A stretch of DNA of 64,000 nt, from the NCBI RefSeq assembly GCF_009914755.1, contig NC_060926.1; one strand, 5' to 3'. This DNA is from the human T2T-CHM13v2.0 reference genome, Homo sapiens. Positions 41,620 through 50,435 of this stretch are shown piece by piece. The number at the start of each line of letters is the position of its first letter. Position 1 is the stretch's first letter. The position numbers and the translations under genes were made by a program. The notes beneath the pieces are model-generated. The model searched no databases, had not been told where the DNA came from, and saw only the letters and a program-made list of their open reading frames with translations.

Positions 41620-41830
41620 GCAGAGGTTACTGCTGTCTTTTTGTTTGTCTGTGCCCTGCCCCCAGAGGTGGAGCCTACAGAGGCAGGCAGGCCTCCTTGA
41701 GCTGTGGTGGGCTCCACCCAGTTGGAGCTTCCCGGCTGCTTTGTTTACCTAAGCAAGCCTGGGCAATGGCGGGCGCCCCTCCCCCAGCCTGGCTGCCGCC
41801 TTGCAGTTTGATCTCAGACTGCTGTGCTAG
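41620..41830 (+). promoter_or_regulatory. L1 antisense promoter region (approx. 5'UTR nt 400-600), directed toward DAPL1 exon 2
   Basis: Placed by position within an intact L1HS 5'UTR; activity inferred from the known L1 antisense promoter. Confidence 0.7.
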
Positions 41831-41981
41831 CAATCAGCGAGATTCCGTGGGCGTAGGACCCTCTGAGCCAGGTGTGGGATATAGTCTCGTGGTGCGCCGT
41901 TTCTTAAGCCGGTCTGAAAAGCGCAATATTCGGGTGGGAGTGACCCGATTTTCCAGGTGCGTCCGTCACCCCTTTCTTTGA
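41766..41981 (+). CDS. L1 ORF0 (71 aa, antisense 5'UTR ORF)
   Basis: gcaATGG start; MAGAPPPAWLPPCSLISDCC...RCVRHPFL; internal donors after nt 106 (CAG|gtgtgg, 41871) and nt 191 (CAG|gtgcgt, 41956). Confidence 0.9.
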   Translation: MAGAPPPAWLPPCSLISDCCASNQRDSVGVGPSEPGVGYSLVVRRFLSRSEKRNIRVGVTRFSRCVRHPFL

Positions 41982-43576
41982 CTCGGAAAGGGAACTCCCT
42001 GACCCCTTGCGCTTCCCAGGTGAGGCAATGCCTCGCCCTGCTTCGGCTCGCGCACGGTGCGCACACACACTGGCCTGCGCCCACTGTCTGGCACTCCCTA
42101 GTGAGATGAACCCGGTACCTCAGATGGAAATGCAGAAATCACCCGTCTTCTGTGTCGCTCACGCTGGGAGCTGTAGACCGGAGCTGTTCCTATTCGGCCA
42201 TCTTGGCTCCTCCCTCCTACAGGCCTATTTTTAGTCAGTTTTATATTCTTCCAACTGCCTTCCTTCTTTTTTACTGAAGAAAGAACTCAAAAGCTTGACT
42301 GCTTTGTTCTTGCCTTTCTCCATTTACAAAAACATATTTACTGTCTAATTCTCTGGCACCTCTAGGCCAAGGTTATTTCAATAATCTTTGCTGCAGAGGG
42401 TGATGGTGGGTATTGTCTTCACAGAGAGTCAAAATGTAACATTGTTTTGGTGGCTTTCCGGCGGGTAGCCTGGCCAAAAAGAGTCCAGATTTTACTACTC
42501 ATTCTGAGTTTCCAGCTCTAGACATCTTGGTCTGATCTCCTCTGGTAGATTACTGATGTTTTATATTTGTAATCAAATTTAGCAATATTTAACATTACCT
42601 ATATTTAAAGTTAATTATGCTAGCTAATAGTCAGGAAGTATATATGCAAATCATTGGAAGACAGGCTCCTTACATAGACAAAGACAAAAGAAAAAAGAAC
42701 TCCATTCTCATTATGTTGTTTCCACTCCAACCCTTCATAAAATGGCTAAGATGAAACCTGTTTTGCTAAACTACATTTATGCACAAAGAACACAGACATA
42801 AACTTAACCAAATGAAAGTTCGAATGAAACCACCGGGAACTTTCTGTCCCCACCACTAATGATTGCTAATTACTCTGTGTACATAGCACACCATGACTCC
42901 ATCAAGCATGTCACAATGCCTCTGGCATGACAATTAATTATTATGAACTGTGACACTACAGATAAGAGGTTTTGGATAATTAGAATGGAGATGAAGGCAG
43001 ACTTTTGCCTCCCCACTGAGCACAAGGGAACAAAGAAGTGTCATCCTTCAGCCTGTCTTGCCACTAATTTTAAGTCTGAATCTGTTTGTGGTGGTGCAAA
43101 ATTTTATTTATGGAACAAAAACAAGTGCCAAAATTCTGTTAATTTTTCACTTGATTTTTATAAGCAAAATACAGATCCCTAAAAGTGGGAAGAAGATACG
43201 ATTCGGTGGGGAGGGTGGGACATACATAGCCTTTGGAATCAGACAGACCTGGGTTTGAACCTCAACTTCATTTCACATCTTCGAGCCTGAGTTTCCTCAT
43301 CTCTGAAACAGGATGCAATAAATAACATCTATCTAGTAAGTTTGTTGTAATGATTAAAAGAGATCACCTCTGTAAAGTATCTGGCACCTGAATGTTAGCC
43401 CCCTTAAAATGCAGGCCCGGTAGAACACATCACTATCAAAAGAAATTATCCTCCCCAATTTCAAGACATCCTGATGCTGGAGCGGCATTAGACACTACTG
43501 CAGTAGTTGGAACAGAAAGAAACTGCAATGGAAAAAATATGTGCCTATCCCATCACAGTTAAAAATGAAATCACTC

Positions 43577-43871
43577 AGCTGGGTACAGTAGCTCACGCCT
43601 GTAATCCCAGCACTTTGGGAGGCCGAGGTGGGTGGATCACCTGAGGTCAGGAGTTCAAGACCAGCCTGGCCAACATGGTGAAACTCCATCTCTATTAAAA
43701 ATACAAAAATTAGCCGGGCGTGGGGCATGTGCCTGTAATCCCAGCTACTTGGGAGGCTGAGGCAGAAGAATCGCTTGAACCCAGGAGGCAGAGATTGCGG
43801 TGAGCAGAGATCACGCCACTGCACTCCAGCCTGGGCAACAAGAGTGAGACCCCGTCTGAAAAAAAAAAAAA
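43577..43871 (+). mobile_element. Alu (AluSq/Sp-like)
   Basis: Full Alu with gggcaacaagag; TSD AAATCACT. Confidence 0.9.
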
Positions 43872-47209: not shown

Positions 47210-48374
47210 AGTTCTTCTCATCTTTAACTAAAACAATTTTGCTTCTATAGTTGGTAATAATAATTAATCCAGGTAGAAGAAAATGTGTAGGAATAATAGC
47301 ATCAGGGAAAGCAAAAGGAACACTAACAAGAAAATAATTACAGCACACTATATATGAAAGGCACTTGTCATAAGGAGAATGAAAAATACTGTTGGGAGGT
47401 GTATCAAAGGCCCCAGAGCTCTTATCTGATTCTTCTTAGCATTAAGCAACAGTGCTATGAGCAGTCACCATCTCCCATACAGAGGCACACACGCCTCAAA
47501 CATTCTTTGGGAAAAAGCCCATCCCTTGATTTATTTCACCTGTATTCCATGGCTATTCAGAAATGTTTCCCTATAATTTCATTTTTGTTGCAGATTACTT
47601 TGTATGCCATATGCGTGTGTATAAATAATTTATGTATATAAAGAATGTGCATATATATATATAATTTAAAGCAGATAATGTATAAAGATAGCATTTTCTG
47701 AGGCTTATATACAAAAATCAATATTTTTTAAACTTGGTAATTCAAATGACCAAATGGAGTTTATTCCATGAATGCAGGAATGGTTGAATAGTAAAACAAC
47801 AGATCTTAGTGATACAAAACCCATAAGAGATTGACAAGGTCATATAAAAACAGCAAATTTCTGACTGGCAAAAACATTATCAATAAAGTCAAAAAGCAGT
47901 AACTGGTACAATATAATATTTTATATTTGCAATGTATCTCATGGAAAAATAGCTCCTATAAATCGGTAAGAAAAAGATAGGAAAAAGACTAGCAATCCAA
48001 TTGAAAAGGACAAAAGATTTGAACAGCTTACAGAAAAGGAAATGCAAATGGCTTCTAAAACACAGAACCAAGCTCAACCTTTAATAAAACATGAGAAATG
48101 AGAATTAAAACAGTGATATACCTTTATCTATTTTGTAACTTACTGGCTGACAAAACCAAACACTTTGTAGCTCGCGTTGTTAACAGGGGTATGGAGGAAC
48201 AACAACTGTCATCATGGCTGGTGAGATTCTAAACTGGTGCAACCTCTGCTAAGGGCAATTTGGCAAGATTTAACAAAATTCCAAACACGCATACTCTTAA
48301 GAACTAACAAGATCACTTTTAGGAATTTCCCCAACAGGTATGCTTGTATTTGTGCAAAATTATGTATCTAAAAC

Positions 48375-48921
48375 TGTTAGGAGAGCAAGAACCTAAAAGA
48401 GCCAGAGTGACATCATTTGAAAATCACCTCCATCTTAGAATGAGCGAGGCACATTCCTTGCTAGTCACAACCCCATGATGCTAAGATGTTTACAGCTGAG
48501 GAAGCAGCTTGGTAATGCCTGCAAGAACAAACTCTTAGAACCACAGAAAGTCCAGATGGGCCAATACCCATAATGATAATGCTTTCAAGATAGTAACAGT
48601 TATGCTTTGATGTACTCACACACCAAATCGTCAAGGATGGTTTTCTTTACATCAGTAGAATAATAAATCTTGTCATGTTGTCTGCTCACCTGCATGTAGT
48701 CACAGTTTAGTCTTTACATAGACAAGACCCCTATATAAGAAAAACTGAAAAACAGTGTGTTTGTGCACTCACTTTCTGAGGACACCCTACTCTGTAATGG
48801 AATTGTTTCTAATAAACTTGCTTATTTCACTGAGCTCTGTGCCTCGCCTTGAATTTCTTCCTGTGCAAGATCCAAGAACCTTTTTTTGGATTCTGGATCA
48901 AGACACCTCTTTCTGGTAGCA
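48375..48921 (+). mobile_element. ERV1-class solo LTR (MER41-group-like) inserted in old L1 sequence
   Basis: TG...CA termini, TATATAA near 48732, AATAAA at 48811, end gatccaagaacc...tctggatcaagacacctctttctggtagca; near-TSD AAAC/AAAG. Confidence 0.7.
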
Positions 48922-50347
48922 AAAGGATATTCATTGCAGCATTGTTTGTGATAGCAGTAGATTAGAAACACATGAAATGTCCAACATTAGGGAACTGGTT
49001 AAGTAAACACAGGATGTTCATACAATAAAATGTTAAAGCAGATGTTAAAAAGAAAAACACACAGATGATATATAGAGATATAGATGTAGATGTAAATATA
49101 GATTTGGAACTTTCTCTAAAATATGTGATTAAGTGAAGAAAATAAACAAGATGTAGAGCAATGTGTACCTTAGGCTACCATTTTATAAAAAATAAAACCT
49201 GAGTGTATGTGTAGAATAACTGTGGATGAAGACACAGGAAGCTTATAACATTAGCAGTATCTTGGGAGATAATCTAGGAAGTTGGAAAATAATTGTAGGA
49301 GGGAGACTGCAGACCTTTTTATGGCTTTTGAATTTTGGGCCTTATGCAGATAAGATAACCAAGACAATAAATTAAGTAATAATTGTAAAGAACAATGATG
49401 AAGTCAGTTGACAAGGGCACAGAAAAATAGAATACATTTTCTTTATTTTTCACTTTATTGGACCACAGTTTTAGAAAATCGCCAATCTGGCATTTTCATA
49501 AAAAGAATTAACAGGCTCAAACAAATCAATGTCCATTTAGCTTTTTCTCATTTGAGCTTGTCAGATTTTAGATGTGCAAATTTCCTGGGAACAGAAAAAA
49601 AGCATTTGCTTTGACTTGCTATCTTGAAATGGGTTGTTCCTTTTCAAAAGTTGATTTCATCTGACATTGTTAAACACTTGAATTGCTGTTAGGTCATCTG
49701 TAGCCTAATTAACACTAATTGATCACTTGAATGGCAGGATTATTAATGCAGTTTAATTACTCATTAGAACATCTGAGCTTGGCCAACACCGGAGTTTTGG
49801 GGTCTGGATGGAAGGTGGGTATCTGGTAGAAACAGAACCATCTCTGTTGAATTAAATGCCTTTTATCACTGTGTGCCCTGACTTTTGGCTCATCTCTCAG
49901 AATCTGGCTTTTGAAAGCTTTGGTTGGAAAAAAAAATGCAAGCCACGCACAACTTTAATCTGGTGGGAAAACAGAGGGTCACGTTGTAATTGTCGGTTGC
50001 TATTGTGGGGAATGTAATTGGTTTGATAATAAGAAAAAATGTTTTTCAGTGAAATGCCTAAGGGAGTATGTTGTTATTCTCCTCCCCAAATCTAAGGTGT
50101 AACCTCTGCTTTTTCAGTCTTGGTTCCACTTCTCTGAGCATAAACAAGTAGCTCTCAGCCCTTCCTCCACCCACACCTGGTTTGCCAATAAAATATATAT
50201 TTTTTTATTGTGTTGTTTTATACAAACGTTTAGATCTTTAAAAAATAAGTTCAAAAATTATTTTCAAATCTAAAGTCATACCTTTAATAACAAAGCAAGC
50301 CTTCTCTCACTGTTCTAACTTCCATGCTGATTTTTATCTGTTTGTAG

Positions 50348-50435
50348 TAAAAGCTGGAGGAATGAGAATTTCCAAAAAACAAGAAATTGGCACCTTGGAA
50401 AGACATACCAAAAAAACAGGATTCGAGAAAACAAG
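50348..50435 (+). CDS. DAPL1: DAPL1 coding exon 2 ([29 protein letters not shown])
   Basis: Acceptor tttgtag|, donor AAG|gtaggg; 88 nt, phase 1 in / phase 2 out; completes GHPPAVKAGGMR. Confidence 0.96.

What the first reader, a model, noticed from the sequence alone, without database searches (positions are those of the whole stretch)
41766..50435. Predicted in-frame ORF0-DAPL1 fusion: L1 antisense promoter, ORF0 donor 1, DAPL1 exon 2
Seen: the L1 is antisense to DAPL1, so ORF0 (ATG 41766) lies on the DAPL1 sense strand upstream of exon 2. The donor after ORF0 nt 106 (CCA G|gtgtgg, 41871) is phase 1, the same as DAPL1 intron 1. Splicing to 50348 recreates GTA (Val) and reads ...[15 protein letters not shown]...IQQPRKC, i.e. 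35 + 88 = 123 aa. Known: primate L1 ORF0 has donors at these positions that fuse to host exons. DAP/DAPL1-family proteins insert their conserved C-terminus into the ribosomal exit tunnel of dormant egg ribosomes. Inference: carriers could make a transposon-headed DAPL1 wherever L1 is derepressed (germline, early embryo, tumours). It would lose the GHPPA half of the N-terminal motif but keep the C-terminal motif, coupling L1 activation to a translational repressor.
Basis: partly seen in the sequence, partly recalled or inferred. Interest (0 to 1): 0.9.

Follow-up and report, generated by a model that had tools for sequence, protein, structure and literature searches.

The report
Possible L1 ORF0–DAPL1 fusion protein
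A very young, intact L1 jumping gene sits backwards in the first intron of DAPL1, and its small antisense gene ORF0 could be spliced in frame onto DAPL1; this is a prediction of an already known kind, with no evidence yet that the transcript is made.

Summary
A full-length L1 (window 36154-42217, minus strand) lies antisense in DAPL1 intron 1, with intact ORF1 and ORF2, a 15-bp target-site duplication and a long A tail. Its 71-aa ORF0 (41766-41981, plus strand) is intact. The donor after ORF0 nt 106 (CAG|GTGTGG, last exon base 41871) is phase 1, like DAPL1 intron 1. Joining it to exon 2 (50348) gives a 123-aa open frame that ends in the native DAPL1 C-terminus.

This is arithmetic, not expression. 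Phase agreement is a one-in-three event: 2 of 6 donor x acceptor combinations here are in frame. By U1 pairing, this donor is the weakest of three L1 donors. The second gives a frameshift. The third and strongest lies after the ORF0 stop. No paper in the held library links DAPL1 with L1 or ORF0, and I could reach no RNA data.

New here: the element is identical over 6034 of 6034 nt to one chr22 copy in the same genome, probably the TTC28 (22q12.1) hot L1. That fits a very recent, probably polymorphic insertion. It is not the known "2q24.1" hot L1.

Verdict: a predicted new member of a known kind (ORF0-exon fusion, or L1 antisense-promoter chimera). The functional story is speculative.

The parts
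36139..36153 (.). Left copy of the 15-bp target-site duplication TACAGGCCTATTTTT
   Evidence: Longest shared string of the two flanks, 15 of 15 identical (seen). The target reads TTTTT/A at the nick side (print). I recall this as the L1 endonuclease preference.
36154..42217 (-). Full-length L1 (L1HS-Ta by the recalled ACA diagnostic in the 3'UTR), including its tail A13-GAG-A28
   Evidence: ORF1 338 aa and ORF2 1275 aa are intact. Pfam finds Transposase_22, Tnp_22_dsRBD and Tnp_22_trimer in ORF1p, and RVT_1 and Exo_endo_phos in ORF2p. Tail counted. The insertion with one TSD is 6079 bp. It is 6034 of 6034 nt identical to G000:C22:29124725 onward.
42218..42232 (.). Right copy of the target-site duplication
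40294..41310 (-). L1 ORF1, intact, 338 aa
36403..40230 (-). L1 ORF2, intact, 1275 aa
41311..42217 (-). L1 5'UTR, which holds the sense promoter and (from the literature) the antisense promoter
   Evidence: About 908 nt, 36 CpG, observed/expected CpG 0.48 (computed on 41311-42218). L1HS antisense ESTs start within the first 600 bp of the 5'UTR (passage). Promoter activity at this copy was not tested.
41766..41981 (+). ORF0, 71 aa, intact, on the DAPL1 sense strand
   Evidence: Translation. The 71-aa length agrees with the literature. No Pfam family. At least 40 copies in this genome are 99-100% identical over these 216 nt: 40 of 2492 candidates were scored, and all 40 were at 99% or more.
41869..41877 (+). 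ORF0 donor 1: CAG|GTGTGG, last exon base 41871, phase 1. This is the in-frame donor.
   Evidence: 7 of 9 matches to MAG|GTRAGT. U1 duplex -7.1 kcal/mol; 4.2% of 403 background GT sites are at least as strong.
41954..41962 (+). ORF0 donor 2: CAG|GTGCGT, last exon base 41956, phase 2. Out of frame with exon 2.
   Evidence: 8 of 9 matches. Joined to exon 2 it gives a 108-aa frameshifted product. U1 duplex -7.8.
42017..42025 (+). Third donor: CAG|GTGAGG, last exon base 42019, 38 nt after the ORF0 stop. The strongest of the three.
   Evidence: 8 of 9 matches. U1 duplex -11.6 kcal/mol, stronger than the DAPL1 exon 1 donor at -10.7. A transcript that uses it encodes complete ORF0 only.
35361..35418 (+). 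DAPL1 exon 1 coding part (58 nt, phase 1 at its donor CAG|GTAGGC). An L1-initiated transcript would bypass it.
   Evidence: hub annotation
50348..50435 (+). DAPL1 exon 2, the proposed acceptor exon. It encodes (V)[10 protein letters not shown]... and the first in-frame internal ATG (Met25).
   Evidence: The acceptor has 12 of 17 pyrimidines at -20..-4, YAG, and no AG at -15..-3.
53118..53178 (+). DAPL1 exon 3
   Evidence: hub annotation; used
61783..61899 (+). DAPL1 exon 4 coding part with the C-terminal motif ...IQQPRKC
   Evidence: Pfam DAP (PF15228), E 1.2e-09. The motif matches the family motif quoted.

Best explanation
What is there (shown): a very recent retrotransposition put a full-length, coding-intact L1HS-Ta element into DAPL1 intron 1. 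It lies 735 bp downstream of exon 1, antisense to the gene. It is an exact copy of one chr22 element in the same genome, probably the TTC28/22q12.1 hot L1. Because it is antisense, its ORF0 and three donor-like sites face DAPL1 exons 2-4 on the sense strand, 8.5 kb upstream of exon 2.

How it most likely works (inferred): in most tissues the CpG-bearing 5'UTR is methylated and nothing is made from it. Where this copy's antisense promoter does fire, transcripts starting upstream of the ORF0 ATG can splice to the native exon 2 acceptor and give a mixture:
(a) donor 1 > exon 2: the in-frame 123-aa ORF0(1-35)-DAPL1(20-107) fusion;
(b) donor 2 > exon 2: a 108-aa frameshifted product;
(c) the strong third donor > exon 2: an mRNA that encodes ORF0 alone. 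Only reinitiation or leaky scanning could then give an 83-aa DAPL1 starting at Met25.

The fusion is therefore a latent, probably minor coding possibility. It belongs to the known class of ORF0-exon fusions and L1 antisense-promoter chimeras. It is not a demonstrated gene product.
For: - Structure.
- Exact-copy relation: the window's copy scores 10855 bits against itself and the chr22 copy 10852 bits; the next best copy scores 10716 (25 of 13001 candidates scored). The ungapped comparison is identical at 6034 of 6034 positions, up to and including A13-GA of the tail.
- Fresh insertion hallmarks: perfect 15-bp TSD, an A28-33 tail and intact ORFs.
- Product arithmetic for all donor x acceptor pairs.
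- Donor strengths.
- Class precedent: ORF0 has two donors and forms fusions with downstream exons. 988 genes have antisense-promoter ESTs, 92.1% of them sense to the gene and typically downstream of the gene's TSS. 124 of the 988 were seen in hESC long reads.
- The exon 2 acceptor is the one the annotated mRNA uses across this same intron (hub annotation).
- ORF0 has a good start context and no upstream ATG in 41619-41765.
Against: - No RNA or protein data of any kind was available.
- DAPL1 is absent from the 10 supplementary files of the EST survey (0 occurrences). That survey used hg19, which may lack this insertion.
- Few loci show antisense-promoter activity in a given cell type: 4 L1HS-Ta loci in MCF7.
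- 57 of about 3200 ORF0 loci were observed as fusions.
- By a crude measure, 15 sites between the L1 and exon 2 have a better pyrimidine tract than the native acceptor. There are also 18 AATAAA/ATTAAA hexamers on the way, so transcripts may be diverted or ended earlier.
- The in-frame donor has the weakest U1 pairing of the three.
- My splice measures are simple consensus and duplex scores, not trained models.
Confidence: 0.6

Rival explanations
1. Carriers make the ORF0-DAPL1 fusion in germline, early embryo and tumours. It binds ribosomes through the retained C-terminal motif, so that L1 derepression is coupled to translational repression.
For: - In-frame product with the C-terminal motif intact and 7 of 9 residues of the N-terminal motif kept.
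- N-terminally tagged Dap-family proteins were used for ribosome pelleting in reticulocyte lysate. This suggests, but does not show, that an N-terminal extension is tolerated.
- ORF0 has a strong start context.
- L1 antisense transcripts are seen in embryonic stem cells, testis, placenta and embryonic tissues.
Against: - No transcript evidence.
- Weakest donor of the three.
- Antisense-promoter activity is restricted to particular loci.
- Criscione's summary of Denli places ORF0 protein at PML-adjacent nuclear bodies, which could keep a fusion away from cytoplasmic ribosomes.
- The crosslinked, conserved N-terminal region is altered (PA replaced by EP).
- In what I read, ribosome plugging was shown for fish and frog proteins only.
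- The dose from a weak promoter is likely small next to the ribosome number.
Confidence: 0.06
2. The element is transcriptionally inert at this locus on the antisense strand and has no effect on DAPL1 coding output. The in-frame arrangement is a coincidence without consequence.
For: - Phase agreement is a one-in-three expectation (2 of 6 combinations).
- Most L1HS copies are silent in a given cell type.
- 0 papers in the held library link DAPL1 with ORF0, with 'L1HS', or with LINE-1 plus 'antisense promoter'. The 5 and 7 papers that hold DAPL1 together with LINE-1 or retrotranspos* look unrelated by title and abstract start.
Against: - The 5'UTR is sequence-identical to that of the chr22 copy. 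If that copy is the TTC28 element, it is transcribed in MCF7 and highly active in tumours.
- Young L1 5'UTRs are commonly derepressed in early embryo-like cells. This is recalled, with partial support.
Confidence: 0.3
3. The main effect is on the normal DAPL1 transcript, not a fusion. The antisense L1 acts as a 'gene-breaking' or exon-trapping insert: cryptic acceptors in the L1 antisense strand pair with the three donors, or cause early termination, and so lower full-length DAPL1 output from the carrier allele.
For: - Three crude acceptor candidates lie upstream of the donors (41395, 41410, 41666). All 9 of 9 acceptor x donor exons carry a stop in the DAPL1 frame.
- A new acceptor-like site (14 of 17 pyrimidines, CAG) straddles the L1 5' end and the TSD at 42223.
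- Intronic L1s are reported to cause exonization, intron retention and cryptic polyadenylation (cited in the passage).
- The gene-breaking model of Wheelan et al. 2005 is recalled, not read.
Against: - Only 3 AATAAA/ATTAAA hexamers lie on the plus strand between exon 1 and ORF0.
- Antisense-oriented intronic L1s are generally tolerated (recalled).
- No expression data.
- The measures are crude.
Confidence: 0.15

Closest known systems
L1 ORF0-host exon fusions (Denli et al. 2015, Cell 163:583). The paper is not held; I know it here only through reviews and citing papers.
   Same: Primate L1 5'UTR antisense ORF of 71 aa. There are two donors inside the ORF. The L1 is antisense to and upstream of a host coding exon, and the frame is compatible.
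   Different: There is no observed junction read or peptide here. The host gene, DAPL1, was not found together with ORF0 in the held library. The L1 is probably a non-reference insertion, so surveys based on the reference genome would miss it.
L1 antisense-promoter chimeric transcripts (Speek 2001; Criscione et al. 2016, PMC4908685)
   Same: An alternative start inside an intronic antisense L1, downstream of the gene's own TSS, that skips the first coding exon. That is the typical arrangement described.
   Different: DAPL1 is not among the 988 genes of that survey (0 occurrences in 10 supplementary files).
'Gene-breaking' by intronic antisense L1 (Wheelan et al. 2005; recalled, not read)
   Same: An antisense full-length L1 in an intron that could split a gene into a promoter-proximal and an L1-driven transcript.
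   Different: Neither half-transcript is shown here.
TTC28 / 22q12.1 hot source L1 (PMC5673974, PMC4866827; passages read)
   Same: 6034 of 6034 nt identity to the chr22 copy at G000:C22:29124725 onward. That copy has 1 + 8 AATAAA/ATTAAA signals at and after its end, and the 6th is ATTAAA. This agrees with the paper's description of nine signals with an ATTAAA sixth.
   Different: The chr22 copy's name rests on that indirect agreement and on my recall of its rough position; I have no direct sequence match to a named record. The DAPL1 copy carries no long 3' transduction, only A13-GA shared with the chr22 end.
The known '2q24.1' hot source L1
   Same: Same cytoband. A non-reference, highly active L1.
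   Different: It is a different element. The PCAWG supplement places it at hg19 chr2:156,527,822-156,527,848, megabases from this window (T2T chr2:159.25 Mb). It is described as lacking the canonical poly(A) signal and using one 234 bp downstream. This copy ends in AATAAA.
Dap1b/Dapl1/Dap ribosome dormancy factors (Leesch et al., preprint 10.1101/2021.11.03.467131; passages)
   Same: The DAPL1 part of the predicted fusion keeps the C-terminal I-Q-Q-P-R-K-x motif that sits in the exit tunnel, and VKAGGMR of the N-terminal motif.
   Different: The first 19 residues and the P-A of the N-motif are replaced by 35 residues of ORF0. No binding was tested.

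Membership tests
ORF0-exon fusion (Denli-type) | Intact ORF0 start and frame up to the donor in a young primate L1 5'UTR | tested here: met
   ATG 41766, open for 71 aa. The L1 is full length with intact ORF1 and ORF2.
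ORF0-exon fusion (Denli-type) | A splice donor inside ORF0 | tested here: met
   Two GT sites with at least 7 of 9 consensus matches lie inside ORF0, at 41871 and 41956. This agrees with the 'two splice donor sites'. I could not check the exact published positions because the paper is not held.
ORF0-exon fusion (Denli-type) | The L1 is antisense to the host gene and upstream of a coding exon whose phase matches | tested here: met
   Donor 1 is phase 1 and DAPL1 intron 1 is phase 1; the product is 123 aa. Donor 2 does not match exon 2.
ORF0-exon fusion (Denli-type) | An observed spliced transcript that joins ORF0 to the exon | not testable with these tools
   No RNA data. Literature: 0 papers hold both DAPL1 and ORF0.
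ORF0-exon fusion (Denli-type) | Evidence of translation (ribosome profiling or peptide) | not testable with these tools
   none
L1HS-Ta, retrotransposition-competent class | Full length, with intact ORF1 (338 aa) and ORF2 (1275 aa) carrying endonuclease and RT domains | tested here: met
L1HS-Ta, retrotransposition-competent class | Ta diagnostic trinucleotide ACA in the 3'UTR | tested here: met
   The minus strand reads ...GATGACACATTAG... (plus strand seen). That ACA marks Ta is recalled; no tool gave it.
L1HS-Ta, retrotransposition-competent class | Hallmarks of target-primed insertion: TSD, A tail, T-rich nick site | tested here: met
   15-bp perfect TSD, tail A13-GAG-A28, TTTTT/A at the target.
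L1HS-Ta, retrotransposition-competent class | Presence/absence polymorphism in people | not testable with these tools
   Only one haploid genome is held. Indirect points: it is an exact copy of another element. The gene span without the insert is 20,685 bp, close to the roughly 20.7 kb I recall for GRCh38. No L1 is listed at chr2:158.78-158.80 Mb in the held part of the PMC10879037 tables, but one file was cut and my coordinates are recalled.
DAP/DAPL1 ribosome dormancy factor | C-terminal motif I-Q/H-Q-P-R-K/R-x | tested here: met
   ...IIQQPRKC in the native and the predicted fusion product. Motif. Pfam DAP hit on exon 4.
DAP/DAPL1 ribosome dormancy factor | N-terminal motif P-A-V-K-A-G-G-M/K-R | tested here: inconclusive
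   Native GHPPAVKAGGMR. The fusion reads GPSEPVKAGGMR, so 7 of 9 motif residues are kept. The effect is unknown.
DAP/DAPL1 ribosome dormancy factor | Binding in the polypeptide exit tunnel and inhibition of translation | not tested
   Needs biochemistry. A joined sequence cannot be handed to the fold tools, and the protein family is described as unstructured.

The most novel reading that the evidence does not exclude
People who carry this insertion express, from the L1 antisense promoter in L1-permissive cells (early embryo, germ cells, hypomethylated tumours), a transposon-headed DAPL1 (ORF0 residues 1-35 joined to DAPL1 residues 20-107) or an N-truncated DAPL1 starting at Met25. Either product would still plug the ribosomal exit tunnel. 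A polymorphic L1 would then put a ribosome-dormancy factor under transposon control and tie L1 derepression to reduced translation.
Probability: 0.05. Interest if true: 0.7.

Novelty: new member of a known kind. Interest (0 to 1): 0.3.

Why it matters
If the junction were found, it would be a clean natural case of a polymorphic transposon rewiring the promoter and the N-terminus of a ribosome-dormancy factor. It could be tested directly, because the cell line behind this assembly is itself a carrier.

As it stands, it shows how easily a young antisense L1 creates an in-frame coding possibility: a one-in-three event. Such predictions should be ranked by donor strength and by promoter activity at the particular locus, not by frame alone.

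The side observation has practical value. The insert is a full-length, coding-intact, exact copy of a chr22 element that is probably the most active source L1 in tumours. Reads from the two copies cannot be told apart internally, so L1 expression or methylation assigned to the chr22 locus in carriers may partly come from the DAPL1 intron.

Tried and rejected
1. Is this the known '2q24.1' hot source L1? Rejected. The PCAWG supplement gives hg19 chr2:156,527,822-156,527,848 (88 occurrences of '2q24.1' and 0 of 'DAPL1'). Its described poly(A) behaviour also differs.

2. Literature link between DAPL1 and L1.
- DAPL1+ORF0: 0 papers.
- DAPL1+LINE-1+'antisense promoter': 0.
- DAPL1+L1HS: 0.
- DAPL1+LINE-1: 5 papers. 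DAPL1+retrotranspos*: 7 papers. I judged both sets from titles and abstract starts only; none looks relevant.
- All searches cover only the held library.

3. Supplement searches for DAPL1.
- Criscione 2016: 0 occurrences in 10 files.
- Lanciano 2024: 0 in 9 files.
- Philippe 2016: 0 in 5 files, for DAPL1 and for 2q24.1.
- The searches of Lanciano's tables by recalled hg38 coordinate prefixes found nothing relevant. They are inconclusive, because one file was cut when stored and the coordinates came from memory.

4. TTC28 in Criscione's supplement, to see which donor an identical antisense promoter uses. It holds only L1MC5/TTC28-AS1 ESTs, so it is no help.

5. Denli et al. 2015 is not held. 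The published donor positions and the list of 57 fusion genes could not be checked, and that list may bear on novelty.

Instead I compared the number and type of poly(A) hexamers with the paper's text. That is only indirect.

7. The search of earlier findings was not open.

8. I started no structure or complex prediction. The fusion is a joined sequence, and the family is described as unstructured.

Full report
**1. The observation**

I read the three places named. On the plus strand an ATG at 41766 opens a 71-codon frame that ends at TGA 41979-41981. The 71 aa agree with the length given for L1 ORF0 in the literature (passage). The start has G at -3 and G at +4. No ATG lies in the 147 nt before it, 41619-41765.

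The sequence CAG|GTGTGG puts the last exon base at 41871. That is ORF0 nt 106, so phase 1. The coding part of DAPL1 exon 1 (35361-35418) is 58 nt, also phase 1. Exon 2 begins at 50348 behind TTTGTAG.

Joined by coordinates in a script, the frame reads through G+TA (Val) into the native DAPL1 frame. It gives 123 aa that end in ...IQQPRKC; the native protein is 107 aa.

**2. The element**

The plus-strand ORF0 lies in the 5'UTR of a full-length L1 on the minus strand (36154-42217).
- ORF1 (338 aa) and ORF2 (1275 aa) are intact.
- ORF1p matches the three L1 ORF1p Pfam domains. ORF2p matches RVT_1 and the endonuclease family.
- A perfect 15-bp target-site duplication (TACAGGCCTATTTTT) flanks it at 36139-36153 and 42218-42232. 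The insert with one duplication is 6079 bp.
- The tail is A13-GAG-A28, plus five A that belong to the duplication.
- The 3'UTR carries ACA at the place I recall as the Ta diagnostic.
- DAPL1 exon 4 matches Pfam DAP (E 1.2e-09). ORF0 matches no Pfam family.

**3. Where the element came from**

I searched the window's own genome with the 6019-nt body. The window's copy scored 10855 bits and one chr22 copy 10852 bits. The next best copy scored 10716 (only 25 of 13001 first-look candidates were scored, so other copies cannot be excluded).

I fetched the chr22 place and compared the two copies. They are identical at 6034 of 6034 ungapped positions, from the shared 5' GAGGGAGGAGCC to A13-GA of the tail. 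The DAPL1 copy has one extra G at its 5' end. After the shared A13-GA it goes on into a new A run, while the chr22 copy goes on into its own flank. This fits chr22 as parent and DAPL1 as daughter, but it does not prove the direction.

The chr22 copy has one AATAAA at its end and eight further AATAAA/ATTAAA signals within about 810 nt; the sixth is ATTAAA. PMC5673974 describes the TTC28 L1 in the same way, with nine signals and an ATTAAA sixth (passages). Together with my recall of that element's rough position, this makes it probable, not certain, that the chr22 copy is the TTC28/22q12.1 hot L1.

Zero differences in 6 kb, an unbroken duplication and a long tail fit a very recent insertion, which is likely to be polymorphic. 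One haploid genome cannot show that. Without the insert the gene would span 20,685 bp, close to the roughly 20.7 kb I recall for GRCh38.

My first idea was that this is the published '2q24.1' hot L1. That was wrong: the PCAWG supplement puts that element at hg19 chr2:156,527,822-156,527,848.

**4. What the antisense strand offers to splicing**

In 41600-42260 three GT sites match at least 7 of the 9 positions of MAG|GTRAGT:

| Donor | Last exon base | Place | Phase |
|---|---|---|---|
| CAG\|GTGTGG | 41871 | inside ORF0 | 1 |
| CAG\|GTGCGT | 41956 | inside ORF0 | 2 |
| CAG\|GTGAGG | 42019 | 38 nt after the ORF0 stop | - |

Two donors inside ORF0 is what the reviews state (passages).

The products, for all pairs:
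- Donor 1 > exon 2: in frame, 123 aa.
- Donor 2 > exon 2: frameshift, 108 aa, no DAPL1 C-terminus.
- Donor 2 > exon 3: in frame, 122 aa, but it needs exon 2 to be skipped.
- The other three pairs are out of frame.

So 2 of 6 pairs are in frame, which is the chance rate. A transcript that uses the third donor encodes ORF0 alone. The first DAPL1-frame ATG after it is Met25, which would give 83 aa.

As a transparent proxy for donor strength I folded each donor with the 5' end of U1 snRNA, a short motif that I recalled:

| Donor | Duplex energy (kcal/mol) |
|---|---|
| L1 donor 1 (41871) | -7.1 |
| L1 donor 2 (41956) | -7.8 |
| L1 third donor (42019) | -11.6 |
| DAPL1 exon 1 donor | -10.7 |
| DAPL1 exon 2 donor | -9.7 |
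| DAPL1 exon 3 donor | -9.6 |

Of the 403 GT sites in 41880-50340, 4.2% pair at least as well as donor 1, 3.2% as well as donor 2 and 0.5% as well as the third donor. The in-frame donor is therefore the weakest of the three. It is, however, the one nearest the cap, and I recall that this favours use.

The path to exon 2 is not clear either. Between the L1 and exon 2 (an intron of 8476 nt), 15 sites have at least 13 of 17 pyrimidines, YAG and no nearby AG. The native acceptor has 12 of 17. There are also 18 AATAAA/ATTAAA hexamers. The same obstacles lie in the native intron, and the annotated mRNA crosses them. All these measures are crude.

**5. What the literature says about likelihood**

Criscione et al. 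2016 (passages):
- They found antisense-promoter ESTs for 988 genes, 92.1% of them sense to the gene.
- The starts are typically downstream of the gene's own start and map within the first 600 bp of the L1HS 5'UTR.
- 124 of the 988 were seen in embryonic stem cell long reads.
- They report that 57 of about 3200 ORF0 loci were seen fused to an exon.
- DAPL1 is not in their supplementary files (0 occurrences in 10 files). Their reference was hg19, which may lack the insert.

Philippe et al. 2016 (passage) found antisense-promoter activity at only 4 L1HS-Ta loci in MCF7 cells, uncoupled from sense activity. This argues against 'wherever L1 is derepressed'.

**6. The DAPL1 side**

The preprint of Leesch et al. 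(passages) shows the following:
- The C-termini of zebrafish Dap1b and Xenopus Dapl1 lie in the polypeptide exit tunnel and reach the peptidyl-transferase centre.
- The conserved motifs are P-A-V-K-A-G-G-M/K-R and I-Q/H-Q-P-R-K/R-x.
- The N-terminal region crosslinks to Rpl31.
- Recombinant Dap1b represses translation in reticulocyte lysate.

The exon 1/exon 2 boundary of human DAPL1 cuts the N-motif between A and V. The fusion reads ...GPSEP-VKAGGMR... instead of ...GHPPA-VKAGGMR... and keeps the whole C-motif. N-terminally tagged proteins were used in the ribosome-pelleting assay, so an N-terminal extension may be tolerated. This is inference. I did not read evidence on human DAPL1 and ribosomes.

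**7. Other effects of the insert (inferred)**

- Three crude acceptor candidates in the L1 antisense strand (41395, 41410, 41666) could pair with the three donors and form exons inside normal DAPL1 pre-mRNA. All 9 of 9 such exons carry a stop in the DAPL1 frame.
- The L1 5' end plus the duplication creates an acceptor-like site at 42223.
- The L1's 3' end lies 735 nt from exon 1 and points toward it. An AATAAA in the flank lies within about 60 nt of the tail.

**8. Verdict**

The sequence facts are right. The insert is a notable element: young, coding-intact, and an exact copy of a chr22 L1 that is probably the TTC28 hot element.

The fusion is a correct but ordinary prediction within a known class. 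It rests on a one-in-three frame coincidence and on the weakest of three donors, and no expression evidence was available to me. The functional story (a transposon-driven ribosome plug) remains possible and is cheaply testable, because the cell line behind this assembly is a carrier.

I put the 41871^50348 junction being detectable in some carrier cell type at roughly 35-40%, a detectable protein at about 10%, and a physiological role at a few percent.

Novelty: new member of a known kind. Interest: 0.3.

Noticed in passing
window 36154-42217 and G000:C22:29124725-29130758 (L001:1026-7059): The DAPL1-intron L1 is identical at 6034 of 6034 nt to one chr22 copy of the same genome; the next best copy scores about 140 bits lower. 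The chr22 copy's nine poly(A) hexamers, with an ATTAAA sixth, fit the published description of the TTC28/22q12.1 hot L1. In carriers, reads from inside the two copies cannot be told apart.
   Followed up: partly
window 36154-42217: This is not the published non-reference '2q24.1' hot source L1, although it lies in the same cytoband. That element is at hg19 chr2:156,527,822-156,527,848 in the PCAWG supplement.
   Followed up: yes
window 42201-42223: The antisense L1 5' end plus the target-site duplication forms an acceptor-like site (TCTTGGCTCCTCCCTCCTACAG|, 14 of 17 pyrimidines). Donor-like sites follow at 42371 and 42405. An insertion-created mini-exon is possible.
   Followed up: no
window 46904-47213: A masked repeat, which I take to be an Alu in antisense orientation. 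It offers a 17 of 17 pyrimidine acceptor at 46928 and CAG|GT donors at 47145 and 47187. This is a classic exonization candidate between the L1 and exon 2.
   Followed up: no
window 41956 joined to 53118: ORF0 donor 2 (phase 2) is in frame with DAPL1 exon 3 (intron 2 is phase 2). It gives a 122-aa product with the native C-terminus if exon 2 is skipped.
   Followed up: yes
window 41358-41615 (+) and 42028-42234 (+): Two further mechanical ATG ORFs (85 and 68 aa) lie on the antisense strand of the L1 5'UTR. The second runs across the L1 5' end into the flank. I have no evidence that either is a gene.
   Followed up: no
window 36182-36184: The A tail is interrupted by GAG after 13 A. A13-GA is shared with the chr22 copy, where GA begins that copy's flank or duplication. 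This may mark cleavage just past the parent's own poly(A) signal. The third base (G here, A on chr22) is unexplained.
   Followed up: partly
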